This document shows, piece after piece, positions 11,860-44,721 of a stretch of 64,000 nt of DNA (position 1 is the first letter of the stretch; each line of letters begins with the position of its first letter). Where the stretch lies: assembly GCA_027317105.1 (NCBI GenBank), contig DAHVFH010000039.1:7891-71890 (forward strand). Reading direction: 5' to 3'. Made by a program: the position numbers and the translations under genes. The stretch is from Cytophagales bacterium. Lineage in GTDB: Bacteria; Bacteroidota; Bacteroidia; Cytophagales; Cyclobacteriaceae. The notes beneath the pieces were generated by a model. That model saw only the letters and a list, made by a program, of their open reading frames with translations, ran no database searches and had not been told where the DNA came from.

Positions 11860-12026
11860 GCAAGTAGTGGTTGAAATGTAAAAATAGGTCAGTAATGTGA
11901 AGAACAAAACCTATCCCAATTTTGGAATAACAAGTCTTATTGGGAATAATAGCAAGATTAATTATTTCTAAATAGTTGACATACAATAATTTACAAATTG
12001 GGTATTTCATTAGCTTATGATTGAAT

Positions 12027-17075: not shown

Positions 17076-17648
17076 TTATTTTTTTGTCGGAGGCAACAAT
17101 ACCCCATCAATTACATAAACCACTCCGTTTGACGCGGGAACAGTGGCCACGATGTTTGCACCGTTTACGGTGTACTTTCCATCTTTTACGCTAATGGTGA
17201 TGTCATCCAAATTTACTTGGTTTATCTTTTGGCCGTCTTTCAAGTTTTCTAATTTGTAAACACCAACTGAAACATGGTATTCTAAAATATTCCGCAAGGC
17301 ATCTTTGCTCTCTGGTTTCAATAGACCTTCAACGGTACCAGCAGGCAACTTGTCAAAGGCAGCGTTAGTAGGTGCAAAAACGGTAAACGGCCCGGCATTC
17401 GATAATGCATCTACATAGCCGGCTGTCTTTAATGCGGTAACCAACGTAGTGTGATCGGCAGAGCCTACGGCAACACCCACTACATTCTTTTCAGAGACAT
17501 CATCTTTTACAGTTGATTGACCGATTTGATCAGGAACGCTTGCTGCAGAGGTGGTAGCTTCATCTTCTTGAGTTTTCCCACTGTTGCAGGCGGTGATTAG
17601 CATCGCAATGAACATAGCCGTAGCTAAGGCGTTTATTTTCGTTTTCAT
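17076..17648 (-). CDS. Fasciclin (FAS1) domain lipoprotein
   Basis: Lipobox LITAC. FAS1 motifs TVFAPTNAAFDKLP and NGVVYVIDGVLLP. Confidence 0.85.
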   Translation of the reverse strand: MKTKINALATAMFIAMLITACNSGKTQEDEATTSAASVPDQIGQSTVKDDVSEKNVVGVAVGSADHTTLVTALKTAGYVDALSNAGPFTVFAPTNAAFDKLPAGTVEGLLKPESKDALRNILEYHVSVGVYKLENLKDGQKINQVNLDDITISVKDGKYTVNGANIVATVPASNGVVYVIDGVLLPPTKK

Positions 17649-21505: not shown

Positions 21506-23503
21506 CTAATGAGCTTCTTTCGTGTCGGTATCTTCAACTACACCCGTTCCAAATTTGATGGGCACATTACTGCCAACTGGCGATACTCTTACGTAGCCCG
21601 ACATCTCCTGATGAAGTGCTGAACAAAAGTCGGTGCAGTAAAAGGGAACTATGCCTACTTCGGTAGGTTTCCATTTCAGTGTTTGGGTTTCGCCCGGCAG
21701 GACAAGCATCTCTGCATTGGCCGCACCGCGAATGGCAAAGCCGTGGGGCACATCCCAGTCTTGCTCAAGATTGGTAAGATGAAAATAGACTTCATCGCCC
21801 ATGCGTATGCCTTCGATATTGTCAGGAGTAAGGTGTGACCGGATGGCGGTCATGTAAACATGAACCTGATTGCCTTTGCGCTCCACTTTGGTTTTTCCCT
21901 CACCTTTAGAAACATAAGGATTAGTGTTTTCCTCTATCTTATAAATTTTCATCGAGTTGGGCGCGATCATATTGGCCGGAATAGATTGGGCGTAATGCGG
22001 CTCGCCAACAGTAGGGAAGTCTAATAGGAGCTGCATTTTATCACCAGAGATGTCATATAGTTGCGCAGATTGTGCTAACTCAGGTCCGGTAGGTAAGTAT
22101 CTGTCTTTCGTAATTTTATTGTAGGCCACCACATATTTTCCCCATGGCTTTTTGGTGTCACCACCGGGTATGGACAAATGACCAATGGAGTAGTAGGTAG
22201 GAACACGATCTAACACTTCAAGCGTCTTCACATTCCATTTTACAATTTCTGAAGAAATAAACATGGAGGTATAGGCATTACCCTTTTCATCAAATTCGGT
22301 GTGCAAGGGGCCAAGGCCTGGTCTTTTCACCTCGCCATGAAGGGCGGCTTCATATTTTATGACTGGCATGCCAGCAAACTCTCCTTCAAAGGCTTTGTCT
22401 GCGATAGCCTTTTGAAATTTTGTAAAGGAAAAAACGGGAATGAGTGCCGCTAATTTTCCGCTCCCCACAATGTATTCACCGGTAGGGTCTACATCGCAGC
22501 CGTGTGGCGACTTAGGACAAGGAATGAAATAGACCACGTCTTTCAGTTCAGCCGGATCGAGTTGGATCACTTCCTTCTCGAGCGTAGAAGTGGCTGTAGA
22601 ACTTTTTTCATCGAAGGTATTGTGCGTGTAATTGGATTTTACTTTTATGCCTTTTCCTTGCTTCACATATTCCGCACATTTTTTCCAGTTAACGGCCATA
22701 ATATAGTCTTTGTCTTTTTGCGAAGCATTTACTTCCAACAAAGTATAAGCTTGCTCGGTATTGTAGCAGGAGAAGAAAAACCAATCGTGGGAGGGCCCTT
22801 TGCCCGAGTGGCTCAAGTCGAAGTTAAACCCAGGTGTGCGTAATTGGAAGTCAATACTCATTCTTCCAGATTGTGGATCTACCTTAATGAAACTTACCGT
22901 TCCTTTAAAATTCTTCTTGAACGAACTGATGGGCACATCACGGTTGTCGCCCATGGGTATGCTAAACCGGGTTCCCGCTATAACATATTCAGTGTTTTCT
23001 GTGATAAAAGGGGAGGAGTGATTACCGCCACTGTTAGGCAGTTCAATAATTTCATCTGTTCTGAATGTTTTTAAATTGATGCGCGCCACACGTGGTGTGT
23101 TGTTACCGTTGGCAAAAGCCCAGCGACCGTCATGAACACCATCGGTTTCCGATAATTCAACATGGTGAAGATCGTCCCAGGGAATATAACCGCGCGAAGT
23201 TTTCAACATGTCTTTTGTTTCTTCGGTGTAGCCGTAACCATTTTCTGGGAACACAGAAAAGACAGGGATGATTTTTAATAATCGGCCGGAAGGTAGTCCA
23301 TACACACTCATCTGTCCATTAAATCCTCCGGAAACGAAATTGTAGAACTCATCATACTTACCCGGTGCTACATATACTTTTTCTGCCGCCCCGCCTTCCA
23401 CGGCAGCCTTTGGCCCTTTTGGTTTACAATTGTACAGGAATGTTGACAGCGCAACAAAGACGATGAGTCCGAATAGTATTCTAATGTTGGTTTTCATATT
23501 CAT
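21506..23503 (-). CDS. nosZ: Nitrous-oxide reductase, clade II (Sec/lipoprotein-type signal)
   Basis: 665 aa with a beta-propeller body and a C-terminal CuA cupredoxin CTDFCSALHQEMSGY. The N-terminus is MNMKTNIRILFGLIVFVALSTFLYNC, with no twin-arginine. Flanked by a cytochrome c gene and nosL/D/F/Y. Confidence 0.95.
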   Translation of the reverse strand: MNMKTNIRILFGLIVFVALSTFLYNCKPKGPKAAVEGGAAEKVYVAPGKYDEFYNFVSGGFNGQMSVYGLPSGRLLKIIPVFSVFPENGYGYTEETKDMLKTSRGYIPWDDLHHVELSETDGVHDGRWAFANGNNTPRVARINLKTFRTDEIIELPNSGGNHSSPFITENTEYVIAGTRFSIPMGDNRDVPISSFKKNFKGTVSFIKVDPQSGRMSIDFQLRTPGFNFDLSHSGKGPSHDWFFFSCYNTEQAYTLLEVNASQKDKDYIMAVNWKKCAEYVKQGKGIKVKSNYTHNTFDEKSSTATSTLEKEVIQLDPAELKDVVYFIPCPKSPHGCDVDPTGEYIVGSGKLAALIPVFSFTKFQKAIADKAFEGEFAGMPVIKYEAALHGEVKRPGLGPLHTEFDEKGNAYTSMFISSEIVKWNVKTLEVLDRVPTYYSIGHLSIPGGDTKKPWGKYVVAYNKITKDRYLPTGPELAQSAQLYDISGDKMQLLLDFPTVGEPHYAQSIPANMIAPNSMKIYKIEENTNPYVSKGEGKTKVERKGNQVHVYMTAIRSHLTPDNIEGIRMGDEVYFHLTNLEQDWDVPHGFAIRGAANAEMLVLPGETQTLKWKPTEVGIVPFYCTDFCSALHQEMSGYVRVSPVGSNVPIKFGTGVVEDTDTKEAH

Positions 23504-23515
23504 TAAAAGTTAGAT

Positions 23516-23989
23516 TTATTTTTCGCCATCATTTTTGCGCATAAATTCAAGCACATCTCGCGCATCGCCAATCGCCATATTTTGGTTGGGCATACGCATT
23601 AAACAGAGTTCTAATAATTTCTGCGCTTCTGGATCTTTCTCCAACATGACATCAGTATTGGTGATCATGTTCATGATCCATTCTGGAGCCCTCTTTTTTG
23701 TAACGCCTTGCCAGCCTGGACCAACGATGCGTTGATCTGTTAATTTATGACAGGCAGAACATTTCATTTCGTAAATGGCCAAACCACGGGTAACACGATC
23801 TTGTTCGATGGGATGGTGTAGCGTTACGTTTTTTACTGCGCCTAATCCTTTTGTGGGATTGGTTATGGCTTCCTTTAAAGCTGTCTTTTGCTGCTCCGGG
23901 GTCGGAAATTCCTCAGCATTTTTAGGCTTGTCGGGAGCGCAGGCACTGAACACAGAAATACTGAAAAAGAATACAATAATTTTATTCAT
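23516..23989 (-). CDS. Monohaem c-type cytochrome lipoprotein (NosC-like electron donor)
   Basis: Lipobox VFSAC and CSACH haem motif with a distal Met region. It is the first gene of the nos operon. Confidence 0.8.
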   Translation of the reverse strand: MNKIIVFFFSISVFSACAPDKPKNAEEFPTPEQQKTALKEAITNPTKGLGAVKNVTLHHPIEQDRVTRGLAIYEMKCSACHKLTDQRIVGPGWQGVTKKRAPEWIMNMITNTDVMLEKDPEAQKLLELCLMRMPNQNMAIGDARDVLEFMRKNDGEK

Positions 23990-24044: not shown

Positions 24045-24083
24045 TATGATCTGAGTCATAAAAAAGTATGATTTAAATCATAC
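24045..24083. promoter_or_regulatory. Two tandem FNR-like palindromes upstream of the nos operon
   Basis: TATGATCTGAGTCATA (24045-24060) and GTATGATTTAAATCATAC (24066-24083), with centres 22 bp apart, 56-94 nt upstream of the cytochrome c ATG. A TACTTTCG (near TAnnTTTG) element lies at 24016-24023 on the minus strand. Confidence 0.6.
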
Positions 24084-24183: not shown

Positions 24184-24936
24184 TTATTCAGCTGGTAATT
24201 TATTATGAACAATAAAACTGATGGAAAGGAGTAACGACATAGCCAAGACGGCAGGAAGCGCTATGAAGAGCCATCCTAATCCAGGTCTATTTTTACCTGT
24301 TTTGGGATCGTAATTAAAGCAAGAGAACAATATGTTTTTATTGGGTAACCGATACGTAGGTGAGTAAATATTATTGACACTACTAATTAATAAATCCAAA
24401 TCTAGTTTATCCCTTATCCCAATTAATTTTTTTGTGATATATCCTTCTTTATTTATTCCGACCAAAAGCGCATCATGGTCATATTGGCTTCGTACGCTGT
24501 CCCAGCGCGGATAAAAGCCAATGGATTGATTTAGTAACGCAATACTATCGGTAACGGCAAAAATCCATTTTTTATTGTTTTCTAATCCTAGCTTTTGCGC
24601 CAGAAGATTCATATCTCCCAACCTATCTCTTGGATCAAAACTAAGAACTAAAATAGTGAAAGGATTATCACTGTTTATGAATTGCAAATTCTCCTTTAGC
24701 TGTAATAAAAAAGGATTGCATACGCCCGCGCACTTTGTAAAAATGAGTGCTAAGAGTAGCGGCTTTTTATTATTGAGATCAGTGAAAGTAAGTTGTTGGT
24801 TTCTGCTTACGCGTATAGGGGCGTTATAGATTCTTTCGTAAATATTTGTTTCCTCCTCAATACCTGAAGCTGTTTGAGCATTCGCAAAAAACCAGGAATT
24901 TATCGTTACGAAGGTGAAAACAATATTTTTAAACAT
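24184..24936 (-). CDS. senC: SCO1/SenC-like copper chaperone with C-terminal TM anchor
   Basis: Thioredoxin-fold CxxxC (FTKCAGVCNP) with a downstream YDHDALLVGINKEGYI (SCO His motif). Overlaps the end of the heme-copper subunit I gene. Confidence 0.7.
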   Translation of the reverse strand: MFKNIVFTFVTINSWFFANAQTASGIEEETNIYERIYNAPIRVSRNQQLTFTDLNNKKPLLLALIFTKCAGVCNPFLLQLKENLQFINSDNPFTILVLSFDPRDRLGDMNLLAQKLGLENNKKWIFAVTDSIALLNQSIGFYPRWDSVRSQYDHDALLVGINKEGYITKKLIGIRDKLDLDLLISSVNNIYSPTYRLPNKNILFSCFNYDPKTGKNRPGLGWLFIALPAVLAMSLLLSISFIVHNKLPAE

Positions 24937-26345
24937 CCTTTATAAATCTTAAAAAAGAAAATTAAAATTGCAGTTAAATATATAGTAGCAAAAATGGCTC
25001 CCATGGTAGCCAAAGGTGCAGCGGCAGTAAAATCTGTTGGGTAGTTACTGTATCTGCGAGGAATTGAATCCGCTCCACCAATATAAAAAGCTAAAAGAAA
25101 CCCAATCCCACCTATCAGGAGTATTGCCAATGTTAGCTTTGTAAATTTTCCATCTTCAATATTTTTAGTAAACTGATTGGTGAACCAATAAAAGAATGCA
25201 AGGCTAAACAACACGTTTCCCATGGCGTTATAGGTGTGAAAATGTGCTGGGACCCAAAGGGTATTGTGAAGGAGGACATTGTTCGTGATGGTCGCATCAA
25301 TCACAGCTCCGAGACCTCCAATCACCCAACCTGCTACACCAATAAAAAATAGCAAGTTGGTAAGCGACCATTTTATTTCGGTACGATAGACCGCTATAAA
25401 CACACTAAACACTGTAACTCCCGCGGCAGGTAAACTTGCCAGATAGGACGCTAATTGTCCTATAATTTGGAATCCTTCAGGTTGAGCAAAATCCATATAT
25501 AAATGATGGAAAAAGGCGGTAAGGATAAAAATCAAAGTAAGGTTCCATGCCAACGCTACATACCATGTAGTTCTCCATTTTGGCCTTCCACTAACTTCTG
25601 AAAACAACTCGTAGATAACAGCTAGACCTAAATAGAGCATTTCATTCGCTATTGTATGCCCGAAAAAATAAGTAAGGTTTTTCATCAATAATGCATCATT
25701 CAAAAAATTGCCGTTTGAGAAATATTCAGCAAAAAATAGGGCGATTAGAATCACTGCGGCAAACAGACAGGTAATAATGCCAATCAGCGTAATCATTGTA
25801 ATAAGGATGAAAGGTGGTGTTTCTACTTTTGGATTTTTCCTGAAATGTTGCCAGGCGAATACTTGAGCTATCGAGTATTTTTTAAGTAATTGAGTCATCA
25901 AGCTTATACTCCAAATTAACCATCCGAGGCCAAACACCGTTAAAGAAACTAAAAAAAGTGGAGTTGCCCACGTTGCCCACATTACCTTAAATGGCAATGG
26001 ATAAAGGAAAGTCCATCCTGCATGAAATTTTCCTACGAAAGTAGTGGTCCAGAAAATCAATACACCAATAACCGTAAGCACGTAAGCGATAACATTTGCT
26101 GTGTAACTTGTTTTTACATAACGCTGCATTAAATAATTAACTGCTGCCATGCCTGCCACAAACCAAATACCAATCATGGTAAGCCCATGAGTAGTCATAT
26201 TTGAGTAAAAAGTGATAGGCGATTGTTCAATAATCTCTCCCTGGTTGAGCCGCATAAGTATGCCAAGGACGATACTGACAATGAACAAAACGAGTACAGT
26301 GATAATCCAAACAGCGGTGATTTTTTTTATTTTTATGGATTCCAT
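24906..26345 (-). CDS. Heme-copper oxidase superfamily subunit I, sNOR-like (candidate nitric-oxide reductase)
   Basis: 12-TM protein with H53 (TTHGLTM), H230 (FFGHTIAN), H280/H281 (AFFHHLY) and H368/H370 (AHFH). The helix-VI motif is H-T-I-A-N (25644-25658) rather than H-P-x-V-Y. Confidence 0.75.
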   Translation of the reverse strand: MESIKIKKITAVWIITVLVLFIVSIVLGILMRLNQGEIIEQSPITFYSNMTTHGLTMIGIWFVAGMAAVNYLMQRYVKTSYTANVIAYVLTVIGVLIFWTTTFVGKFHAGWTFLYPLPFKVMWATWATPLFLVSLTVFGLGWLIWSISLMTQLLKKYSIAQVFAWQHFRKNPKVETPPFILITMITLIGIITCLFAAVILIALFFAEYFSNGNFLNDALLMKNLTYFFGHTIANEMLYLGLAVIYELFSEVSGRPKWRTTWYVALAWNLTLIFILTAFFHHLYMDFAQPEGFQIIGQLASYLASLPAAGVTVFSVFIAVYRTEIKWSLTNLLFFIGVAGWVIGGLGAVIDATITNNVLLHNTLWVPAHFHTYNAMGNVLFSLAFFYWFTNQFTKNIEDGKFTKLTLAILLIGGIGFLLAFYIGGADSIPRRYSNYPTDFTAAAPLATMGAIFATIYLTAILIFFFKIYKGCLKILFSPS

Positions 26346-26366
26346 GATCTTATGATTTATGCATTT

Positions 26367-26918
26367 CTATTTAACTATAAAGGATGATCTCATGCCATGA
26401 TGGGCCATTCCACAAAACTCCAAGCATAGAATGTTGTACTTGCCCGGCTCTTTAAACTTATGTCGGAGGCGGTTTACATAGCCGGGCATAGCCTGAGTTT
26501 GAGTGATTAAGGTGTTTGATTGATCGTAGATTGCAAAACCATGATTTACATCGAGACTCGTAACCCTGAATTCGACCAGTTCATTAGCGGGTAATTCTAT
26601 AGGTTCGCCAGAAGGACTTTTAGGATCAATAGCCTTTTCAGAAAGGATGAAAGCAAATTGCATTGCTGACACATGAACTATTTTTTTCGGAGTTTCATCA
26701 GCAAAAAGAAAATATGGCGACTTTGGAATAGTTACGGATGCAAAAATACCCAGTACTACAAATAGGATGAGTAAAAACCAAAACCGCTTTCTTAAGGGAT
26801 TGGACATTCCTTGCTTTTCTTGTCCTGCCTTTTTTGAAGAGGCATATACGTAAGTAAAGACAACCGTGGTTATGCCAGCCAAGATTAGAAATACTAGTAA
26901 GATCATTTGTTGTTGCAT
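26367..26918 (-). CDS. Heme-copper oxidase subunit II-like CuA cupredoxin protein
   Basis: Two N-terminal TM helices, with CuA ligands in LDVNHGFAIY and CLEFCGMAHHGM. Confidence 0.8.
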   Translation of the reverse strand: MQQQMILLVFLILAGITTVVFTYVYASSKKAGQEKQGMSNPLRKRFWFLLILFVVLGIFASVTIPKSPYFLFADETPKKIVHVSAMQFAFILSEKAIDPKSPSGEPIELPANELVEFRVTSLDVNHGFAIYDQSNTLITQTQAMPGYVNRLRHKFKEPGKYNILCLEFCGMAHHGMRSSFIVK

Positions 26919-27086: not shown

Positions 27087-27108
27087 CTTTATGATTCTGA
27101 TCATAAAG
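27087..27108. promoter_or_regulatory. FNR-like palindrome upstream of the NOR-like operon
   Basis: CTTTATGAT-TCTG-ATCATAAAG is a perfect 9+4+9 inverted repeat. It lies between the Crp-family gene stop and the subunit II start. Confidence 0.55.
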
Positions 27109-27136: not shown

Positions 27137-27736
27137 TTAAACCAGAATTTTGTGTTTTTGCAAACGAAGCTTGCCAGCGGCTTCTAATTTTTTAACTGTT
27201 CGGATAATGGTTTCTACCCGCAAGCCCGTCATGTCGGCCATTTGTTGGCGTGTCAATGAAATTAGAGACTGTGCCCGGTAATCCGTATTACCCCTGGTTT
27301 CATTTTTCAGCCGATTCAATAAATTTAGTACCCTGTTTTCGGGACGATCAAAGGCAATCGAAGCGAGCGCTTTATTTTTATTGCGAAGGCGTTCACATAA
27401 AATCTGATCCAGCTTTAAATGGAGGTCAAAATTATTTTTGATTAAATCGAAAAAATCTTCTGTCCTCATCTTCCATATGCTTGAATTTTCTAGTGCAACT
27501 GCAGTGCTCGGATAAGGAAATTTGGAAAGGATCGGAGGTTCACCAAAGCTTTCTCCTTTGTGGGCAATTCCCTGAATAAATTCCTGCCCTTCATCACTGC
27601 GTGAGATCATTTTAACAGCGCCTGTTTCGAGTTGAAAATAATGGAAGGCATCTTCTCCTTCCCTAAAAATAACAGCTCCTTTTTTGAACTTAATAAGTAT
27701 CGCATGATAGGTCTCAAGAATTTTTCTTGCTATCAT
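27137..27736 (-). CDS. Crp/Fnr-family transcriptional regulator (Dnr/NnrR-like, no N-terminal Cys cluster)
   Basis: cNMP-binding-like beta-roll (FREGEDAFHYFQLETGAVKM) and a C-terminal HTH LTRQQMADMTGLRVETIIRTVKKL. It lacks the FNR Cys motif. Confidence 0.85.
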   Translation of the reverse strand: MIARKILETYHAILIKFKKGAVIFREGEDAFHYFQLETGAVKMISRSDEGQEFIQGIAHKGESFGEPPILSKFPYPSTAVALENSSIWKMRTEDFFDLIKNNFDLHLKLDQILCERLRNKNKALASIAFDRPENRVLNLLNRLKNETRGNTDYRAQSLISLTRQQMADMTGLRVETIIRTVKKLEAAGKLRLQKHKILV

Positions 27737-27926: not shown

Positions 27927-30338
27927 TTATAGCTTATTTCTGAATGCTCGCTCACCAACCCAATTGACAGCCAGCGTACTAAACCCCACTACGCTGACAC
28001 TGCTGATCGGCATAAGGATAGCCGCAATGAGTGGCGATAGATTTCCAGTAATGGCAAAACTGAGCGTAATAAAATTATAGAGAAACGAAATGCCAAATGC
28101 TATTTTCAGGATGACGATCGCTGATTTACTTAAAGCAAGAAATTGGTTTAAGTTTTTCAGTTGTTTGCCCAGTAGAATACCATCGCTGGCCGGAGTGAAG
28201 ATGCCGGTGTCGTCTGTCACGGCTACGCCCAAGTCACTTTGTTTTAATGCACCCGAATCGTTGAGACCATCGCCTACCATCATCACGCGATGGCCATTTT
28301 GCTGGAGGTTAGAAACGAAATGAAGCTTGTCTAATGGGGTTTGATTGAAATAAAGCCCCTTGTCAGAAAGAAAAACCGATTGCATCCGCCCTTTTTCTGA
28401 AGGGTTATCGCCCGAAAGCAAAAAGACCGACAGTTTGGTATTGATCTTGGCGATCAATTCTTTCAACCCGTTTCGCAATGACGTTTCGATTTTGAAATAG
28501 CCGCGTACCTCGCCATCAATCGAAACAAAAACCATAGATTGACTTTCGGTAATTACTTTTTCAAATCCAACAAACCGAGCAGATCCTATTTTTAACTGAT
28601 GATTGATTATCACGCCTGCAATTCCTTCTGAAGGAACTTCCTCGAAAGTAGAAAGTGGCATTGGTGATGCCGCTATTGACTTGGCAATAGTGCGACTTAG
28701 CGGATGGACGGATGAGGCCGTGAGTGCTTTCACCATACCGAGCTCTTCAGAAGAAAGTGTGCCATTAAACGTAATGGTTGATGCGCCTTGCGTTACCGTG
28801 CCAGTTTTGTCGAAGACAATTGAATCGATGGCGGCCATCCGCTCGATCACATCGGCATTTTTTAAATAGAAACCATTTCGCCCAAACACGCGGAGCATAT
28901 TGCCAAAAGTGAATGGTGCTGCCAAGGCCAGCGCGCAAGGGCAAGCCACAATCAACACCGAAGTGAAAATCAACCACATTTGGTTGGGTGAAACAAAGTG
29001 CCAATAAATGGCCGTCATTGCGGCAATGCCTAAAATCACCCAGGTGAATTTTTGAGCAACGGTGTCAATCATTTTTTTGTATCGGCTCTCTTCATTTTTA
29101 TGAAATGTCTCATAGTTCCATAGGCTCGTCAGGTGACTTTGCGCTATTTTTTTCTCTACCACAAATTCAGCAGGTTGTCCAATCAATCTTCCCCCGCCAT
29201 AAATCAAGGCTCCCTCTTGAACATGCACAGGCTTTGATTCACCAGTCACAAAACTGTAATCGATGAAAGCTTGTTTGCTCATTAAATAGCTATCCGCGGG
29301 AACAATTTCCATATTCCTTATCTGGATTATATCTCCTTTTTCCAAATGATGAACCAGAAGGGGGTTCCAATCGTTGTCGATTTTCTTATTGACCGCTAGC
29401 GGGAAATACGATTTGTAATCCCTGTCAAAGGCAAGGCTGTCATACGTTTTGCTTTGAAACCACCGACCGATCAGCAAAAAGAAAACGAGTCCTGAAAGTG
29501 AGTCGAGATAACCAGGGCCTTGATGGGCGAGGATGTCGTAAGCACTGCGTAAAAAAAGTACGGCAAGTCCCACGGCAATCGGCACGTCAATGTTGATCCG
29601 CTTTTGCCTGAAGCTTTTCCATGCCGCTATGAAGTAGTCTTGACCACTGTAAAGAACCACAGGCATTACTAGAAGCAGATTTAAATATGAAAATAAAGTG
29701 CGTAGTTGAGCGTCTGAATTATCGAGCCCCAGGTATTCTGGGAAACTGAGCATCATGATGTTGCCAAAACAGAAACCAGCCACAGTAAGCCGGATAATTA
29801 ACGCTTTGCTAAGTGCCGCTGTCGGCTTTATCTCTTCCAATGTAATCAACGGGGCATATCCCAAAGAAGATAGCAATCTGGCCACTGCAGCTAGTGAAAT
29901 TTTGCTGGGGTTAAAATCGAGGGTGATTTGCCTGTGGCTGAAATTTACTTCTGACCGGATCACGCCACTGTTTAGGCGTTTTAGGTTTTCCAGTAGCCAT
30001 ATACAGGAGATGCAGTGGATATTGGGGATGGAAAATTGTGCCCTGCTGAAAGAATCGGATTGGAAGGTTATTATTTTTTTTGCAATCTCCGGATCGTCAA
30101 GAAAAGCAAAACTTTCTTCGCGTACATGACGCAACGAGACGCCCGGACTTTCGTCAAGGGAATAGTATTCGCAGAGATTGTTTTCGTCCAGGATTTCATA
30201 TACGGTTTTGCATCCATAGCAACAAAAGGAATTTTCTCCGGAAAGCACCACTTCCTTTTCACATACCAATCCACAGTGGGCGCATTTCACCGTGCGCTCA
30301 ACGGGTAGGTTGGCTATTTCCAACAGGTCACTGTTCAT
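27927..30338 (-). CDS. ccoI: Copper-translocating P1B-type ATPase, CcoI/FixI type
   Basis: N-terminal Cys-rich CcoI-type domain (CAHCGLVCE...CCYGCKTVYEIL), HMA CxxC (HCISCIW), CPC (ACPCALALA), DKTGT and GDGLND. Confidence 0.9.
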   Translation of the reverse strand: MNSDLLEIANLPVERTVKCAHCGLVCEKEVVLSGENSFCCYGCKTVYEILDENNLCEYYSLDESPGVSLRHVREESFAFLDDPEIAKKIITFQSDSFSRAQFSIPNIHCISCIWLLENLKRLNSGVIRSEVNFSHRQITLDFNPSKISLAAVARLLSSLGYAPLITLEEIKPTAALSKALIIRLTVAGFCFGNIMMLSFPEYLGLDNSDAQLRTLFSYLNLLLVMPVVLYSGQDYFIAAWKSFRQKRINIDVPIAVGLAVLFLRSAYDILAHQGPGYLDSLSGLVFFLLIGRWFQSKTYDSLAFDRDYKSYFPLAVNKKIDNDWNPLLVHHLEKGDIIQIRNMEIVPADSYLMSKQAFIDYSFVTGESKPVHVQEGALIYGGGRLIGQPAEFVVEKKIAQSHLTSLWNYETFHKNEESRYKKMIDTVAQKFTWVILGIAAMTAIYWHFVSPNQMWLIFTSVLIVACPCALALAAPFTFGNMLRVFGRNGFYLKNADVIERMAAIDSIVFDKTGTVTQGASTITFNGTLSSEELGMVKALTASSVHPLSRTIAKSIAASPMPLSTFEEVPSEGIAGVIINHQLKIGSARFVGFEKVITESQSMVFVSIDGEVRGYFKIETSLRNGLKELIAKINTKLSVFLLSGDNPSEKGRMQSVFLSDKGLYFNQTPLDKLHFVSNLQQNGHRVMMVGDGLNDSGALKQSDLGVAVTDDTGIFTPASDGILLGKQLKNLNQFLALSKSAIVILKIAFGISFLYNFITLSFAITGNLSPLIAAILMPISSVSVVGFSTLAVNWVGERAFRNKL

Positions 30339-30345
30339 GAAGCAA

Positions 30346-31176
30346 TCATTTGGTCTTATACGTCCAGATAGGGCACTCGATGTGATTCACCACATCTTCC
30401 GCAATGCTTCCGCTCATCAGGTGGGCAAGGCCTGTTCGCCCATGGGTGCCCATGGCTACCATGTCGGCCTTTACTTCTTTTGCGAAATTTGTAAGCCCAG
30501 ACTCTTGATTGATATCGTTGAAGATATTGATGGTAAAATCTCTGAACATATAACGTTTAGCAAACCCATTGAGGAGCTGACGTGTCTCTAGGTCGCGTTT
30601 AAAATTCGAAGGCGTGTTGATGTAAACAATGTGCAGTTTAGCTTTAAAGAAATCCTGCAATTTTTTGACTTGGGTAGCTAGTACTTCTTCCTCTTCCTGA
30701 AGGGCATTTGGGAAAACGATATTCTTGATCGCACCTTTGCTGTATTTCTTGATGGCAATCATCGGCACAGAAGAAAGCCGCACTATCTTTTCGGTGTTCG
30801 AGCCTACAATAATTTCCTTCAATCCGGAAGCCCCTCGGGTACCCATTACGATAAGGTCAACCTTATTCTCTTGTGCCATGTTAATGATGGAAGAGGCCGT
30901 AGGGCCGTAGGCTACTTCCCATGTTATCTTTGGTCCTTCCTTGGCCCACTTGGCTTTCATTTTTGAGAAGTTTTTCAATGCACTTTCCTTGCTGTCCTTC
31001 AAGTAAACTTCCTCTAAAGAAAGTGAGGGCATAAGCATGGTGTCGTACATCACCGGAAGTTCTATTACGTGAAGCAAAATCACCTGTCCGTCACTCTCGT
31101 TGGCAAGATCGATGGCAAACCGAAAAGCGTTGGTGGCAGATTCAGAAAAATCGCAGGGTACTAATATCTTTTTCAT
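30346..31176 (-). CDS. Universal stress protein (tandem Usp domains)
   Basis: MKKILVPCDFSE...GTRGASGL and a second domain ending GTHGRTGLAHLMSGSIAE. The start was moved to 31176. Confidence 0.85.
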   Translation of the reverse strand: MKKILVPCDFSESATNAFRFAIDLANESDGQVILLHVIELPVMYDTMLMPSLSLEEVYLKDSKESALKNFSKMKAKWAKEGPKITWEVAYGPTASSIINMAQENKVDLIVMGTRGASGLKEIIVGSNTEKIVRLSSVPMIAIKKYSKGAIKNIVFPNALQEEEEVLATQVKKLQDFFKAKLHIVYINTPSNFKRDLETRQLLNGFAKRYMFRDFTINIFNDINQESGLTNFAKEVKADMVAMGTHGRTGLAHLMSGSIAEDVVNHIECPIWTYKTK

Positions 31177-31232
31177 AAAGTATTTGATTTGTTGTAACAA
31201 AGAGGTAGGTATTGAAATATTTCGTTTTAGAT

Positions 31233-32087
31233 TCAATTAGAGTTAATCACATACGTTAATACAGGCATGGAAGAATGGTTAATCACATCCTCCGTTATGC
31301 TGCGGCTTAAGACACTGGAGAATCCTGTTCGTTTTCGGGAAGCCATAGCAATTGCGTCTGCTTTTATCCCCGAGGCGAAATGAAGGATTCCTTCTTCTTC
31401 CTCATAATCACTAAAGACATTCAATGTGTAATTGGTCAAGTTCATTTTTGCTACAAAGTTTGCCATTTCTTTTTTTACTTCGTGATCGGGTTGGAATTCC
31501 ATTGGCGTGTTGACCCTTACCAAATGGAGCGTAGCGTAGTAAGTTTCCTGCATCAACTTCACGATTTCAATGAAGCTTCTTTCCCCTTCGTTTAAGGAGG
31601 TAGCATAAACAATGTTTTTGTATTCTGTTGTAGTTGGTTTTTCGTGAACAGAAAAGACCGGTCGTTTTGAGTATCTTACCACTCTTTCGGTATTTGAACC
31701 GATCAAAGCCTCTTCTATTTTCGTGCGCCCGGATGTGCCCATCACTACTAAGTCAGCTTTGAAAGCTGAAATGATGGATCGTATTCCATGGAAAGGATTG
31801 CCAATCTTCAGCTGAGTGTAAATGATCACTTCTGAAGTCTTGACACTCCGTTCTGCTTCTTCTAATAGGTTTTTACCCTTATTTATGAGTTCCAACACAT
31901 AACGTTTTTCTTCCTGATTTGAATAGCCTGCAATCTGCTCCTCAGCATTAAAAGACAATTCCATAGGCTGCTCTATGACATGCAACAAGATGATATCAGC
32001 CTTTGTTTTCCTGGCAATACCGATCGCAGTTTCAAGTGCCCATTGTGCTGGTTGGGAAAAATCGGTTGGCACAAGTATTTTTTTCAT
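31233..32087 (-). CDS. Universal stress protein (tandem Usp domains)
   Basis: MKKILVPTDFSQ...GTSGRTKIEEALIGSNTE plus a second Usp domain. Confidence 0.85.
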   Translation of the reverse strand: MKKILVPTDFSQPAQWALETAIGIARKTKADIILLHVIEQPMELSFNAEEQIAGYSNQEEKRYVLELINKGKNLLEEAERSVKTSEVIIYTQLKIGNPFHGIRSIISAFKADLVVMGTSGRTKIEEALIGSNTERVVRYSKRPVFSVHEKPTTTEYKNIVYATSLNEGERSFIEIVKLMQETYYATLHLVRVNTPMEFQPDHEVKKEMANFVAKMNLTNYTLNVFSDYEEEEGILHFASGIKADAIAMASRKRTGFSSVLSRSITEDVINHSSMPVLTYVINSN

Positions 32088-32210
32088 GGTCATAACCTTG
32101 TCATCAAAAAAAAGAGAGATTTAGACTACCTAAATTTCATTTCAAAAATATTCTTGAGTAAAGATCGATGTTCATGGACAACAGATGGCCTTAACAGGCT
32201 CATAAAAAAA

Positions 32211-32226
32211 TATGATTTTGATCATC
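32211..32226. promoter_or_regulatory. FNR-like palindrome upstream of the USP-ccoI gene string
   Basis: TATGAT-TTTG-ATCATC flanked by A7 and T5 tracts, about 125 nt upstream of the USP ATG. Confidence 0.5.
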
Positions 32227-32378
32227 TTTTTATAACTTCTGCATTACCGATTCAGATTAAATGATGGTAGTACATTACTTGATGGATGTTGAAATACGTG
32301 TATTTAAAACCTTAATCGTGCCACCTCTCCAAGCAATGGTCTCGACCTAAATAGCGACTCTAAAATTGACTTATAAAA

Positions 32379-32816
32379 TCAGGCTATGGCAAGAATGTGT
32401 GCTGAATCTGGAACAATTACCAATGGCACTTCAATGTGTGTAAGCAGTTCGTCTACCGATTCTTTGTTGTTGTTAATCAGTTCTTTGCTCATGACCACGA
32501 ATAAAACGTTACCGTGGCTAACGTGTTCTTGAACCCTGCCTTGAATGAATCCAATTTCGGATTGAAAATCATATGATAGTGTTTTGTTTTTGAACAGTTT
32601 TTTGGCAACGACTTCAAAATTTCTACTCGCTTCTTCCTCCATTTTATTTTTTGCGGAAAGCATATTATTGTCTTTTGCTAAGAGGTTGAGTCGTTGTGGG
32701 TGTGAAATGTTAAGGTGAGCACTCAACTTCTCGGCCATACTTGCAGCCCACTCCAATGCTTGAATGGAGGATTTCGAAAAATCAATAACGCACAAGATAG
32801 ACGGTGCTTTTTTCAA
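32379..32816 (-). CDS. Universal stress protein (single domain, divergent)
   Basis: 145 aa with a Usp-like N-terminus (ILCVIDFSKSS..ALEWA) and a VPLVIVP C-terminal strand. The ATP-binding Gly motif is not evident. Confidence 0.6.
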   Translation of the reverse strand: MKKAPSILCVIDFSKSSIQALEWAASMAEKLSAHLNISHPQRLNLLAKDNNMLSAKNKMEEEASRNFEVVAKKLFKNKTLSYDFQSEIGFIQGRVQEHVSHGNVLFVVMSKELINNNKESVDELLTHIEVPLVIVPDSAHILAIA

Positions 32817-32898
32817 AGGGATTAGGTATTACTATTATTTATTAGGTAAAGGTCTGTGTCTTGAGTAATAGAAACATCCATGTGGGTCAGTGGAAAAA

Positions 32899-32912
32899 AT
32901 GATTTTAATCAT
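32899..32912. promoter_or_regulatory. FNR-like palindrome in the divergent USP / histidine-kinase intergenic region
   Basis: ATGAT-TTTA-ATCAT preceded by A6, 26 nt upstream of the kinase ATG and about 90 nt upstream of the USP ATG. Confidence 0.5.
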
Positions 32913-32937
32913 GTAACTTGCCTCCTTAACTTGTTAA

Positions 32938-34194
32938 ATGCCGGCATCTTTTGAACTTTCAGTCGTATCCAACGAAGCTTTTCGAGAGATTTTTCAAAGC
33001 ATGACTGAGGGTATTATTGTGATTGACAAATCCGGAAAAATATTGGTAGCCAATAGGGTGGCGGAAGAAATGTTTGGGTACAAGCAAAATGAACTGAGTG
33101 GAAAGGATTTGGAAGTGCTTTTGCCTGAAGAGTATAAAAGTGGCCACGTTAAACTTCGCGATAACTTTAATAAGAATCCATCACCGAGAAGGATGGGGCA
33201 TGGTAGGGATCTTAAAGCATTAAAGAAAGACGGAAAGGAATTTCCAGTGGAAATTAGCCTAAGTTATTCACAGACTGAAGATAGTTTCATTGCCATCGCA
33301 TTCATCAGCGATATTTCGTGGCGCAAAAATTCAGAGGAAGCTATGAAAAGGAGCGAGGAGCAGCTTATTGTCTATGCCTCAGAGCTTGAACGGAAAGTAA
33401 AGGCTCGTACGGAAGATTTAAATTCTAGTATCCAAGAGCTTGAACGTGAGATAATTGAACGAAAGAAAGCGGAAGAAGAGGCGCTGAAATCAGTAGAACG
33501 GGAGCGTGAGCTTAGCGAGCTGAAATCCAAGTTTGTTTCCATTGCTTCACACGAGTTTCGTACACCACTTAGTACAGTGCTTAGTTCCATCGCGCTAATT
33601 GAGCAATATAAGGAACGGGGCGAGCTGGATAAGATCGATAAACACACCAATCGTGTGCGGTCTTCCGTAAAGCATTTGACGACTATCTTGGATGATTTTC
33701 TTTCACTTGGAAAATTAGAAGAAGGAAAGGTTGACTTGGCGAAAGAGCCAGTAAATCTTGACAGCCTGCTGATGGATATTATTGAGGAAATGCGCGCATC
33801 CCTTAAAGAAGGACAGCAAATTGTGATCGATAAAATTCCTGATCTACACCTCCTTACAGATGGCCGAATTTTACGTAATATTTTGTTCAACTTAATTTCC
33901 AACTCCAGCAAATACTCAGGACCCAATAAACACATTTTCATTAGCTGCTCACTCAAAGAAAGTGTCATCAAAATCAGCATTCGCGATGAAGGGATGGGCA
34001 TTCCTCCCCAAGAACAGAAGCATTTGTTCGAGCGGTTCTTCAGGGCTAGCAATGTGACTTCTATTCAAGGGACAGGCCTTGGGCTGAACATTGTGAAAAG
34101 ATATGTGGAGTTGTTGAACGGCTCGATAAATTTTGTAAGTGAATATGGAAAAGGCAGTACCTTTGCGATAACTATTCCGATTGAACAACGATGA
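32938..34194 (+). CDS. PAS-domain sensor histidine kinase (cytoplasmic)
   Basis: S-box PAS (GIIVIDKSGKILVAN...LLPEEYKSGHVKLRDNF...GHGRDLKALKKDGKEFPVEISLS), coiled-coil linker, H-box FVSIASHEFRTPL, N-box and G-boxes (DEGMGI, GTGLGL). No TM segment. Confidence 0.9.
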   Translation: MPASFELSVVSNEAFREIFQSMTEGIIVIDKSGKILVANRVAEEMFGYKQNELSGKDLEVLLPEEYKSGHVKLRDNFNKNPSPRRMGHGRDLKALKKDGKEFPVEISLSYSQTEDSFIAIAFISDISWRKNSEEAMKRSEEQLIVYASELERKVKARTEDLNSSIQELEREIIERKKAEEEALKSVERERELSELKSKFVSIASHEFRTPLSTVLSSIALIEQYKERGELDKIDKHTNRVRSSVKHLTTILDDFLSLGKLEEGKVDLAKEPVNLDSLLMDIIEEMRASLKEGQQIVIDKIPDLHLLTDGRILRNILFNLISNSSKYSGPNKHIFISCSLKESVIKISIRDEGMGIPPQEQKHLFERFFRASNVTSIQGTGLGLNIVKRYVELLNGSINFVSEYGKGSTFAITIPIEQR

Positions 34195-44087: not shown

Positions 44088-44105
44088 ACATGATTTACAT
44101 CATGT
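44088..44105. promoter_or_regulatory. FNR-like palindrome upstream of the cytochrome c-porin operon
   Basis: ACATGAT-TTAC-ATCATGT is a perfect 18-nt palindrome followed by T6, 108-125 nt upstream of the cytochrome c ATG. Confidence 0.5.
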
Positions 44106-44402: not shown

Positions 44403-44721
44403 GACCGTATCTGAACCACAAATACCAGATCTATCCCACTTTTGTTAAGCTTGACAATCTTTGTATGTGACTGTCAAGGGTCAATTATCTTTTACCTTAG
44501 TTAAAACGGTAACTTTAGCCATTGGCAGGAATACTGATGCAGGACTATGACCCTAATGAGCCAGGCCTGGCTATACGCCTGATCGGTATCAAGGTGAAGA
44601 AAATGGATTTTGATGAAGTGTTTGAAATACACAACCGCTCGATGGTTTGATTAAAGAGTTGTTGCAGAACTCCTAACAGATTTCTACTTTGTGGGTTGAA
44701 TTAAATCAAAGCAATCCCACT

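What the first reader, a model, noticed from the sequence alone, without database searches (positions are those of the whole stretch)
24184..26918. Heme-copper 'oxidase' beside nosZ looks like an sNOR-type nitric-oxide reductase (CuA subunit II, subunit I, SenC)
Three co-directional genes make up the unit.
- Subunit II (183 aa) carries a full CuA ligand set (VNHGFAIY; CLEFCGMAHHGM).
- Subunit I (479 aa) has all six canonical His ligands (H53, H230, H280/281, H368/370). Helix VI reads H-T-I-A-N (25644-25658), so Asn sits where A- and B-family oxygen reductases have the His-cross-linked Tyr (H-P-x-V-Y).
- An SCO1/SenC-like chaperone (CAGVC) follows.

The same trio, norS/norY/senC, is what the ammonia-oxidiser literature and the Hemp/Gennis heme-copper classification call sNOR. 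Loss of the active-site Tyr is a hallmark of NOR-like members. The genes lie between a Dnr-like regulator and a clade II nos cluster, which fits an NO to N2O to N2 module. As far as I know, this enzyme class has little or no biochemical characterisation in Bacteroidota.
Basis: partly seen in the sequence, partly recalled or inferred. Interest (0 to 1): 0.65.

Follow-up and report, generated by a model that had tools for sequence, protein, structure and literature searches.

The report
sNOR-type nitric-oxide reductase beside nosZ
Three genes beside a nitrous-oxide reductase cluster in a Bacteroidota genome from mine drainage encode a heme-copper enzyme of the known but never purified sNOR family, which most likely reduces NO to N2O and shares a regulatory DNA motif with nosZ.

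Summary
On the minus strand lie a CuA subunit II (26918-26367), a 479-aa heme-copper subunit I (26345-24906) and a Sco/SenC copper chaperone (24936-24184).

Subunit I belongs to a large family that always has Asn where oxygen reductases have the cross-linked Tyr. In my tree this family separates 100/100 from the nearest Tyr-bearing oxidases. It contains three proteins the literature calls sNOR: Ruegeria (Silicibacter) pomeroyi, Ca. Methylomirabilis, and Bacillaceae "type II". So the sNOR reading is supported.

Three points are new:
- **nosZ linkage is rare.** None of 80 related genomic loci has nosZ within 10 kb. Relatives instead sit beside NO-stress genes (RIC, Rrf2), NirK or nitrite transporters.
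- **Shared operator.** A perfect 16-bp palindrome, TATGAT-N4-ATCATA, occurs exactly twice in the 64 kb: once upstream of the sNOR operon and once upstream of cytochrome c-nosZ.
- **Distinct subclade.** The Bacteroidota-type clade carries a Glu (E235) right after the active-site Asn, which no other family member I examined has.

NO-reductase activity is inferred, because no sNOR has been characterised biochemically. This is a new member of a known kind, of moderate interest.

The parts
26367..26918 (-). sNOR subunit II (NorS-like): two N-terminal membrane helices plus a periplasmic cupredoxin domain with a full CuA site (H126, C165, E167, C169, H173, M176)
24906..26345 (-). sNOR subunit I (NorY-like), 479 aa with 12 helices. 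Heme and CuB/FeB ligands are H53, H230, H280, H281, H368 and H370.
25644..25658 (-). Helix VI motif H230-T-I-A-N234. N234 replaces the cross-linked Tyr (ba3 Y237). The next codon, E235, is specific to the Bacteroidota-type clade.
24184..24936 (-). Sco/SenC-type copper chaperone with a signal peptide, a thioredoxin fold (C69-x3-C73, H154) and a C-terminal membrane anchor. Its start overlaps the end of subunit I by 31 nt.
27090..27105 (.). Perfect 16-bp palindrome TATGATTCTGATCATA, about 170 bp upstream of the subunit II start. Candidate Crp/Fnr-type operator.
24045..24082 (.). Two tandem copies of the same palindrome between the Sco gene and the cytochrome c gene, upstream of cytochrome c-nosZ. 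24067-24082 is perfect and 24045-24060 has one mismatch.
27137..27736 (-). Crp/Fnr-family regulator (cNMP-binding domain plus HTH_Crp_2) with a single Cys and therefore no FNR-type Cys cluster. Candidate binder of the palindromes.
23516..23989 (-). Mono-heme c-type cytochrome (CSACH) with a lipoprotein-like signal sequence (…VFSAC). Candidate electron donor to the CuA centres of NosZ and possibly sNOR.
   Evidence: homologues sit directly upstream of subunit II in 13 loci of the sister clade
21506..23503 (-). Sec-dependent (clade II) nitrous-oxide reductase NosZ
   Evidence: TIGR04246, 943 bits
17720..21490 (-). nos accessory genes: a 205-aa membrane protein, then nosL, nosD, nosF and nosY
27927..30338 (-). 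Copper-type P1B ATPase with a FixI/CcoI-type N-terminal metal-binding domain (PF12156). Probable copper supply for the cuproenzymes of this island.

Best explanation

**Proposed mechanism.**
- Shown from sequence: subunit II is held in the membrane by two helices and carries a periplasmic CuA centre. Subunit I has the two His ligands for a low-spin heme, the proximal His for a high-spin heme, and three His ligands for a CuB or FeB metal.
- Inferred: electrons pass from a periplasmic c-type cytochrome to CuA, then to the low-spin heme, then to the binuclear centre.
- Shown: the Tyr that supplies the fourth electron for O2 reduction is replaced by Asn.
- Inferred: the site therefore performs the two-electron reaction 2 NO + 2 H+ + 2 e- -> N2O + H2O.
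- Inferred: a polar stripe on one face of helix VI (N234, Y238, Y245, E246) takes the place of the ba3 K-pathway residues Y237, Y244 and Y248. It may carry protons from the cytoplasm, which would make the reaction electrogenic.
- Inferred: the Sco protein loads copper into CuA.

**Role in this genome.** The operon and the adjacent cytochrome c-nosZ operon carry the same TATGAT-N4-ATCATA palindrome. A Crp/Fnr-family regulator probably switches them on together, giving a NO -> N2O -> N2 module. No nitrite reductase lies in the window, so the NO may come from elsewhere in the genome or from neighbouring organisms. The role could therefore be detoxification as much as respiration.
For: **Family membership.**
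- All 120 closest homologues read G-H-x3-N-E.
- All 85 diverse family members I aligned keep Asn at that position, together with HHLYMDF and HNTLWVPAHFHTY.
- A neighbour-joining tree (61 sequences, 473 columns) separates the H-x3-N family from the nearest GHPxVY proteins in 100 of 100 bootstraps.
- Inside the family are the NC10/Ca. Methylomirabilis protein (35% identity, E 6e-91), a 493-aa Cytobacillus protein (32%) and the Ruegeria pomeroyi megaplasmid protein (32%, E 2e-72). The best Tyr-bearing oxidases reach only 25-29%.
- The literature names these anchors or their lineages as sNOR: Damo_0801-0802 (PMC6094997); Silicibacter and Geobacillus, with active-site residue N (table in PMC8756737, after Hemp & Gennis 2008); and B. 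azotoformans "type II" with 12 helices, a two-helix subunit II and linked senC (PMC3475470).
- The ba3 Ser309 position is Ala307 in the window's protein (Ala in 56 and Ser in 19 of the 85 family members), in line with the missing Ser reported for sNOR. An acidic residue sits at 246 (PMC11214002).

**Conserved unit.** The order subunit II, subunit I, Sco holds in essentially all 80 loci from many phyla.

**Links to nitrogen oxides elsewhere.**
- RIC, DUF2249 and Rrf2 genes lie directly upstream in the 85%-identical Cyclobacteriaceae homologue.
- Among the 80 loci, RIC is a neighbour in 8, Rrf2 in 10 and a formate/nitrite transporter in 3.
- A contig carrying an 84%-identical homologue has NirK (347 bits on TIGR02376), a NirV-like protein and a truncated haemoglobin beside the trio.
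- Ruegeria has a divergent Rrf2 gene and a nitrite transporter. Thermomicrobium roseum has a nitrite transporter.

**Co-regulation here.** The perfect 16-bp palindrome occurs only twice in 64 kb, both times in the promoter regions of the two operons. The core TGAT-N4-ATCA occurs 9 times against 1.7 expected.
Against: - No sNOR has been purified or assayed (PMC11214002, PMC13592168).
- In N. europaea the sNOR genes rise 2.7- to 10.8-fold under O2 limitation. Those authors argue it may be a high-affinity oxidase (10.1101/765727).
- The family's nearest Tyr-bearing relatives in the protein library match O2-reducing ba3 and aa3 oxidases best, and it probably still holds copper, the metal so far tied to O2 chemistry.
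- I did not include ammonia-oxidiser NorY, bNOR or eNOR sequences, so the placement rests on three anchors and a distance tree.
- The palindrome is not upstream of subunit II in relatives (3 of 79). nosZ is not linked in relatives (0 of 80).
- No RNA data exist for this organism.
- The structural model of subunit I is poor (pLDDT 64), so the proton path is read from sequence register only.
Confidence: 0.65

Rival explanations
1. It is a high-affinity terminal oxidase or O2 scavenger, not an NO reductase. It would be expressed under hypoxia with NosZ to keep O2 away from the oxygen-sensitive N2O reductase or to respire trace O2.
For: - The N. europaea sNOR genes are strongly induced under O2 limitation, and the authors propose an oxidase role (10.1101/765727).
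- The family's nearest Tyr-bearing relatives in the protein library match O2-reducing ba3 and aa3 oxidases best.
- The local regulon includes universal-stress proteins, a PAS kinase and an FNR-like operator, which fits a hypoxia response.
Against: - The cross-linked Tyr is absent in all 85 family members.
- No Tyr sits at the helix VII position that C-family oxidases use; positions 272-276 are all aliphatic, aromatic Phe or Thr.
- Canonical four-electron O2 reduction needs that Tyr (PMC11214002).
- Neighbours in other genomes are specific to NO or nitrite (RIC, NirK, nitrite transporters, truncated haemoglobin), not to O2.
Confidence: 0.15
2. It is an NO detoxification enzyme with no respiratory role. 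Its position next to nosZ would be a recent rearrangement, and the shared palindrome would reflect a general stress or hypoxia regulon.
For: - nosZ is linked in 0 of 80 related loci.
- The commonest informative neighbours are nitrosative-stress genes (RIC, Rrf2, DUF2249).
- There is no nirK or nirS in the 64 kb window.
- The palindrome also precedes universal-stress protein genes.
Against: - This differs from the main explanation only in physiological purpose. The chemistry is the same.
- Only the two adjacent operons carry perfect copies of the palindrome.
- The conserved helix VI polar stripe suggests proton uptake from the cytoplasm, and so energy conservation.
Confidence: 0.15
3. It is a heme-copper enzyme with a different substrate, for example another N-oxide or a peroxide, or it serves as a sensor. 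The clade-specific E235 and Asn residues would then mark a new activity.
For: - E235, N355, N373 and N377 are 95-100% conserved in the Bacteroidota-type clade and essentially absent from the rest of the family.
- Other branches of this superfamily have been proposed as NO dismutases or N2O reductases (PMC11214002).
Against: - No positive evidence points to another substrate.
- The core ligand set and the Asn are those of sNOR and of bNOR, and bNOR does reduce NO.
Confidence: 0.05

Closest known systems
sNOR (NorSY-SenC), named from ammonia-oxidising bacteria. Also reported in Silicibacter/Ruegeria, Geobacillus and Bacillus "type II", and Ca. Methylomirabilis (Stein 2007; Hemp & Gennis 2008; Murali et al. 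2024)
   Same: - Asn at the Tyr position and six His ligands.
- 12-helix subunit I of about 480-500 aa.
- CuA subunit II with two membrane helices.
- sco/senC immediately downstream.
- Ala307 at the ba3 S309 position, and an acidic residue at 246.
- 32-35% identity with E values from 1e-72 to 1e-91, and the same 100/100 clade.
   Different: - It sits in a separate, Bacteroidota- and Ignavibacteriota-dominated subclade with E235, N355, N373 and N377.
- It has no fourth "orf1" or CbaC-like membrane protein gene.
- The Sco protein has an extra C-terminal segment with a conserved Cys206 and a membrane anchor.
- It lies next to a clade II nos cluster.
bNOR (qCuANOR) of Bacillus azotoformans, a biochemically proven NO reductase
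   Same: It has the same active-site pattern (His3 plus Asn at the Tyr position), a CuA subunit and a linked senC (PMC3475470, PMC11214002).
   Different: bNOR subunit I is about 568 aa with 13 helices. Its subunit II has one helix, and it has a 46-aa third subunit. It is confined to Bacillales and is reported not to be closely related to sNOR. I did not include it in my tree.
Thermus thermophilus ba3 (B-family O2 reductase)
   Same: It shares the fold, the heme and CuB His ligands, CuA subunit II, and the K-pathway Tyr248, which matches Y245.
   Different: ba3 has the cross-linked Tyr237 plus Ser309, Thr312 and Thr315. Here those positions are Asn234, Ala307, Val310 and Phe313. The phmmer E value is only about 1e-7.
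eNOR of Rhodothermus marinus, the only B-family-derived NOR characterised in the Bacteroidetes sensu lato
   Same: It is a CuA-containing, B-family-derived NO reductase with a conserved K-type channel (PMC11214002).
   Different: eNOR has Gln, not Asn, at the Tyr position (table in PMC8756737) and is a separate family. I did not compare sequences.

Membership tests
sNOR | Heme-copper subunit I with all six canonical His ligands | tested here: met
   H53, H230, H280, H281, H368 and H370 are invariant in 85 family members and align to the ba3 ligands.
sNOR | Cross-linked Tyr replaced by Asn (active-site residue "N") | tested here: met
   N234 aligns to ba3 Y237. Asn is present in 85 of 85 aligned members and in 120 of 120 close homologues. 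The definition comes from PMC8756737 (appendix table) and PMC3475470.
sNOR | Subunit II with a cupredoxin fold and a complete CuA site | tested here: met
   H126, C165, E167, C169, H173 and M176 are present and at least 95% conserved. Pfam COX2 is above its cut-off.
sNOR | Short 12-helix subunit I and a subunit II with two N-terminal helices (Bacillus "type II" description) | tested here: met
   The protein is 479 aa, with 12 long helices in the model. Subunit II has two hydrophobic segments at 6-24 and 46-64. The description is in PMC3475470.
sNOR | sco/senC gene linked to the structural genes | tested here: met
   It overlaps subunit I by 31 nt. The Cu ligands and the fold are confirmed. The gene order is conserved in the 80 loci.
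sNOR | Groups phylogenetically with named sNORs and apart from O2 reductases | tested here: met
   Neighbour-joining bootstrap is 100/100 for the H-x3-N family, which contains the Ruegeria, NC10 and Cytobacillus anchors. This is a distance method, with no bNOR, eNOR or nNOR references.
sNOR | Groups with the name-giving ammonia-oxidiser NorY | not tested
   I could not retrieve a NorY sequence. The profile search returned Ruegeria, Phaeobacter, Thiobacillus and Gallionellaceae proteins but none labelled Nitrosomonas.
sNOR | K-channel region altered: ba3 Ser309 missing and a conserved Glu elsewhere | tested here: inconclusive
   Position 307 is Ala in this protein, and Ala in 56 and Ser in 19 of 85 members. 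E246 is Glu in 62 and Asp in 8 of 85. The paper's figure identifying its Glu is not available, so the identity of that Glu is my inference (PMC11214002).
sNOR | Fourth gene (orf1 or CbaC-like membrane protein) in the cluster | tested here: not met
   The 195 bp after the Sco gene lead straight to cytochrome c. The Ruegeria orf1 has a homologue in only 1 of 80 loci. This gene is an accessory, not used to define the family in PMC11214002.
sNOR | NO-reductase activity | not testable with these tools
   No sNOR has been assayed (PMC11214002, PMC13592168).
B-family O2 reductase (ba3 type) | His-Tyr cross-link motif H-P-x-V-Y in helix VI | tested here: not met
   The window reads H-T-I-A-N.
cNOR / qNOR / nNOR | Glu at the Tyr position as a fourth FeB ligand, with a heme c or quinol donor module (cNOR/qNOR) | tested here: not met
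   Asn, not Glu, sits at position 234, and the donor module is CuA. cNOR structures rank far below the oxidases in Foldseek.
gNOR | One CuB His replaced by Asp, and a subunit II without CuA ligands | tested here: not met
   All three CuB His residues and all CuA ligands are present.

The most novel reading that the evidence does not exclude
The Bacteroidota/Ignavibacteriota-type sNORs may be a functionally distinct subfamily. Its invariant Glu235 next to the active-site Asn, together with Asn355, Asn373 and Asn377, could remodel the binuclear site, for example by supplying a carboxylate ligand or proton relay like the Glu of cNOR. In this genome the enzyme may also be wired to NosZ through a shared lipoprotein cytochrome c and a shared operator. 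That would form a dedicated NO -> N2 pathway in an organism usually scored as a non-denitrifying N2O reducer.
Probability: 0.2. Interest if true: 0.65.

Novelty: new member of a known kind. Interest (0 to 1): 0.42.

Why it matters
**Effect on genome-based N2O budgets.** Bacteroidota with clade II nosZ are usually counted as N2O sinks that make no N2O themselves. NCBI annotation names this enzyme "cbb3-type cytochrome c oxidase subunit I". KEGG-based annotation is reported to file sNOR under cytochrome c oxidase coxA (10.1101/2024.05.17.594689). Standard annotation can therefore miss it.

If it is an NO reductase, these organisms both produce and consume N2O. That changes how their genomes should be read in N2O budgets for soils, wastewater and mine drainage.

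**Scale of the gap.** The family is large: at least 577 relatives turned up among species-representative genomes. None has been studied biochemically.

**A way to test it.** Cultured carriers exist, namely Gelidibacter japonicus, Aquipluma nitroreducens and Flavobacteriaceae bacterium F89. They make direct experiments on this clade possible.

Tried and rejected
- **Ammonia-oxidiser NorY.** I tried two cluster look-ups, a plasmid search and a profile search seeded on the Ruegeria clade. None returned a sequence labelled Nitrosomonas or Nitrosococcus, so I used other literature-named anchors.
- **Window protein in the assembly index.** It is not on record there.
- **RNA evidence.** Only DNA runs, from mine drainage and freshwater, hold the sequence.
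- **Subunit I structure.** The alignment allowed for the job was shallow (at least 76% identity), giving pLDDT 64. Foldseek confirms only a heme-copper oxidase fold and cannot separate the A and B families. I therefore made no geometric claims about E235 or the proton channel.
- **Sigma-70 promoter scan.** It was uninformative, with fewer hits than in shuffled sequence, and Bacteroidota use a different promoter consensus.
- **Published per-genome sNOR table.** The stored part of the supplement of PMC12569097 does not include the genome sheet.
- **nosZ linkage as a conserved family trait.** Rejected, with 0 of 80 loci.
- **bNOR, eNOR, gNOR, nNOR and cNOR membership.** Rejected on active-site residue, subunit architecture or taxon. 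See the membership table.
Full report
**1. What is there**

On the minus strand of the window lie three tightly packed genes:
- 26918-26367, 183 aa
- 26345-24906, 479 aa
- 24936-24184, 250 aa

Only 21 nt separate the first two. The third starts 31 nt before the second ends.

Pfam assigns COX2 to the first (30.7 bits, above its cut-off) and COX1 to the second (E 1e-55). The third gets a sub-threshold SCO1-SenC hit of 19.7 bits against a cut-off of 22.8. No NCBIfam model reaches its cut-off for any of them. That explains why public homologues carry the generic and misleading name "cbb3-type cytochrome c oxidase subunit I".

- VNHGFAIY starts at residue 124 and CLEFCGMAHHGM at residue 165 of subunit II.
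- His sits at 53, 230, 280, 281, 368 and 370 of subunit I.
- H-T-I-A-N is residues 230-234, which is 25658-25644.
- CAGVC starts at residue 69 of the third protein.

**2. The three proteins**

*Subunit II.* It has two hydrophobic N-terminal segments. It also has the full CuA ligand set: H126, C165, E167, C169, H173 and M176. Each is at least 95% conserved in 63 orthologues.

*Subunit I.* It forms 12 long helices in an AlphaFold model (pLDDT is only 64, so I use it for topology only). I aligned a 21-sequence family profile to T. thermophilus ba3 chains in the PDB. The mapping is:

| Window residue | ba3 residue | Role in ba3 |
|---|---|---|
| H53 | H72 | low-spin heme ligand |
| H230 | H233 | CuB ligand |
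| N234 | Y237 | cross-linked Tyr |
| H280/H281 | H282/H283 | CuB ligands |
| H368/H370 | H384/H386 | heme ligands |
| Y245 | Y248 | K-pathway |
| E246 | T249 | - |
| A307 | S309 | K-pathway |
| V310 | T312 | K-pathway |
| F313 | T315 | K-pathway |

*Third protein.* It is a genuine Sco-type copper chaperone despite its weak Pfam score.
- C69, C73, H154 and an SFDP motif are invariant in 66 orthologues.
- Its model (pLDDT 75) matches Sco proteins best: Aquifex aq_2194, B. subtilis Sco, Arabidopsis and human SCO1, with target TM-scores of 0.7-0.8.
- It carries an extra C-terminal segment with a conserved Cys206 and a membrane anchor.

**3. Which family**

I searched 1.8 billion representative proteins and tabulated motifs. 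Everything down to about 27% identity reads G-H-x3-N in helix VI, together with HHLYMDF and HNTLWVPAHFHTY. Below that come proteins with G-H-P-x-V-Y, the oxygen-reductase motif.

In 85 diverse members the invariant residues are H53, K222, H230, N234, H280, H281, D285, W326, D350, N356, H360, N361, H368, H370, Y372 and R430. No member has Tyr at positions 272-276, which includes the position (six residues before the His280-His281 pair) where C-family oxidases keep their alternative cross-link Tyr.

Three proteins inside this family link to published sNOR assignments:
- **NC10 / Ca. Methylomirabilis oxyfera** (P0128). The literature lists one sNOR there, Damo_0801-0802 (PMC6094997). It cannot be the gNOR of the same organism because all the CuB His residues are present.
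- **A 493-aa Cytobacillus protein** (P0141). Its length and features match the "type II" CbaA2 of B. azotoformans and Geobacillus: Asn for Tyr, 12 helices, a two-helix subunit II and linked senC (PMC3475470). B. azotoformans is stated to have qNOR, sNOR and bNOR (PMC11214002).
- **The Ruegeria (formerly Silicibacter) pomeroyi megaplasmid protein**. A table after Hemp & Gennis 2008 gives sNOR the active-site residue N and names Betaproteobacteria, Silicibacter, Deinococcus and Geobacillus as holders (PMC8756737).

BLASTP of the window protein gives these results:

| Target | Identity | E value |
|---|---|---|
| NC10 sNOR (P0128) | 35% | 6e-91 |
| Cytobacillus type II (P0141) | 32% | 3e-79 |
| Ruegeria sNOR (P0444) | 32% | 2e-72 |
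| Best Tyr-bearing proteins | 25-29% | 3e-42 or weaker |

A neighbour-joining tree of 61 sequences on 473 columns recovers the H-x3-N family in 100 of 100 bootstraps against nine Tyr-bearing outgroups. The window sits in a Bacteroidota/Ignavibacteriota clade, and the three anchors sit in another subclade of the same family.

The limits of this test are that it uses a distance method, includes no bNOR, eNOR or nNOR references, and lacks the ammonia-oxidiser NorY, which I could not retrieve. bNOR shares the Asn. It is excluded on published grounds: about 568 aa, 13 helices, a one-helix subunit II, and restriction to Bacillales (PMC3475470, PMC11214002).

**4. Distribution and source**

The best are an Ohtaekwangia MAG (86%) and a Flammeovirgaceae MAG (85%).

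The clade at 46% identity or more is mostly Bacteroidota and Ignavibacteriota, with single Verrucomicrobiales, Acidobacteria and "Deltaproteobacteria" members. More distant relatives span Acidobacteriota, Planctomycetota, Pseudomonadota and others.

The window's exact sequence occurs in a mine-drainage metagenome run. No RNA run holds it. Cultured carriers of the clade include Gelidibacter japonicus, Flavobacteriaceae bacterium F89 and Aquipluma nitroreducens.

**5. Gene neighbourhoods**

The order subunit II, subunit I, Sco is kept in essentially all 80 fetched loci. nosZ is never within 10 kb. The only NosZ hits are to the CuA domain of subunit II.

Other neighbourhoods still point to nitrogen oxides:
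- In the 85%-identical Cyclobacteriaceae homologue, the trio lies directly downstream of, and co-directional with, several genes. These are DUF2249, a RIC/YtfE iron-sulfur repair protein (TIGR03652, 234 bits, above cut-off), DUF1858-DUF2249, an Fe-S assembly protein and an Rrf2 regulator.
- Among the 80 loci, RIC occurs in 8, Rrf2 in 10, DUF2249 in 9 and a formate/nitrite transporter in 3.
- A contig carrying an 84%-identical homologue has several such genes next to the trio. These are a truncated haemoglobin, a second Sco, an FGE-sulfatase (NirV-like) protein and a copper nitrite reductase fused to cytochrome c (TIGR02376, 347 bits, above cut-off).
- Ruegeria has a divergent Rrf2 gene, then Sco, a hypothetical membrane protein, a formate/nitrite transporter and a cytochrome c. 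Thermomicrobium roseum has a formate/nitrite transporter.
- Some homologues have no informative neighbours at all.

**6. Regulation in this genome**

The sequence TATGAT-N4-ATCATA occurs as a perfect 16-bp palindrome exactly twice in 64 kb.
- 27090-27105, about 170 bp upstream of subunit II.
- 24067-24082, in the 195-bp gap upstream of the cytochrome c-nosZ operon.

A one-mismatch copy lies 6 bp away at 24045-24060. Another lies upstream of a universal-stress gene at 32211-32226.

The core TGAT-N4-ATCA occurs 9 times against 1.7 expected, and no shuffle reached 9. The core resembles the FNR/Dnr box TTGAT-N4-ATCAA; that comparison rests on my own knowledge.

Two Crp-family proteins are nearby:
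- The 199-aa regulator just upstream. It has one Cys, so it is not an FNR-type Fe-S sensor.
- A REC-cNMP-HTH_Crp hybrid at 34191-35252, next to a PAS histidine kinase.

The box is not upstream of subunit II in relatives (3 of 79). In this genome the sNOR operon appears to have been recruited into the same regulon as nos. No nirK or nirS lies in the window.

**7. Mechanism**

What the sequence shows:
- A CuA entry site.
- Ligands for two hemes and a CuB or FeB metal.
- No redox-active Tyr.
- A dedicated Sco chaperone.
- Nearby, a FixI/CcoI-type copper ATPase (27927-30338) and NosL/NosDFY.

What I infer:
- Electrons flow from cytochrome c to CuA, then to the low-spin heme, then to the binuclear centre, where two NO are reduced to N2O.
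- N234, Y238 and Y245 fall at i, i+4 and i+11, so they lie on one face of helix VI. With E246 they replace the ba3 Y237-Y244-Y248 stripe. This fits the statement that sNOR has a conserved but altered K-type channel (PMC11214002) and possible electrogenic proton uptake.
- The 157-aa cytochrome c between Sco and nosZ has a lipoprotein-like signal. It is homologous (28-40% identity) to cytochromes encoded directly upstream of subunit II in 13 loci of the sister clade. It could feed both CuA enzymes.

**8. A subclade signature**

In the 42 sequences with at least 46% identity to the window protein, several polar residues are 90-100% conserved yet essentially absent from the other 43 members. They are E235, H108, H167, N355, N373 and N377. 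All 120 closest homologues read N-E.

E235 directly follows the active-site Asn, and the rest of the family has Ile or Leu there. I could not place it in three dimensions. It is the most interesting open detail.

**9. Rivals**

The main rival is a high-affinity oxidase role, proposed for N. europaea sNOR from its induction under O2 limitation (10.1101/765727). The invariant loss of Tyr and the NO- and nitrite-specific neighbours argue against it. Only an assay can settle it.

A purely detoxifying role is compatible with most neighbourhoods and differs only in purpose.

**10. Verdict**

The class is known and already counted in genome surveys (PMC11214002, PMC12569097), so this is a new member of a known kind. 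Its extra value lies in three things: the unusual, operator-backed coupling to clade II nosZ; the clade-specific E235; and the fact that no sNOR has yet been characterised (PMC13592168).

Noticed in passing
window 27090-27105, 24045-24082, 32211-32226, 32898-32913, 44089-44104: A family of TATGAT-N4-ATCATA palindromes, all in intergenic regions. They lie upstream of the sNOR operon, cytochrome c-nosZ, a universal-stress gene, a PAS kinase / Usp divergent pair, and a site about 585 bp upstream of the peptidase gene at 44689. This looks like a local Crp/Fnr-type regulon.
   Followed up: partly
window 25641-25643 (E235), plus subunit I residues H108, H167, N355, N373, N377: These polar residues are 90-100% conserved in the Bacteroidota/Ignavibacteriota-type sNOR clade and essentially absent from the other 43 family members I aligned. 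Glu235 directly follows the active-site Asn.
   Followed up: partly
L083 5191-6474 (also L001 1683-2966): A 427-aa membrane protein with no Pfam family. It has only a faint match to the C-terminal part of COX1 or cbb3 subunit I. It is conserved inside the RIC/DUF2249/Rrf2 cluster next to sNOR in 7 loci. It may be an uncharacterised NO-related membrane protein.
   Followed up: partly
window 30346-32816 and 32938-35252: Three universal-stress-protein genes, two of them tandem-domain, sit next to a PAS histidine kinase and a hybrid regulator (receiver + cNMP-binding + Crp HTH). Together with the copper ATPase this reads as a hypoxia or redox island.
   Followed up: no
window 7672-11907 (minus strand): A 1411-aa DNA polymerase III alpha subunit with an N-terminal RNase_T-type exonuclease domain fused ahead of the PHP domain.
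   Followed up: no
window 35279-36085 (minus strand): A 268-aa protein combining an SprB repeat with a C-terminal c-type cytochrome domain (CSSCH), next to a YceI-like protein.
   Followed up: no
proteins P0192, P0220, P0267: Distant full-length relatives of subunit I in the representative library lack the CuB His ligands altogether. Helix VI reads MLEEFLR or similar, and there is no HH pair. They may be non-catalytic or differently metallated heme-copper-like proteins.
   Followed up: no
L091 10271-13589: In a contig carrying an 84%-identical sNOR homologue, a truncated haemoglobin, a second Sco, a NirV-like FGE-sulfatase protein and a NirK-cytochrome c fusion lie right after the sNOR trio. 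This gives a nirK-sNOR linkage in place of the nosZ linkage seen here.
   Followed up: partly
window 17076-17648 (minus strand): A fasciclin-domain protein is encoded just downstream of nosY, at the end of the nos cluster.
   Followed up: no
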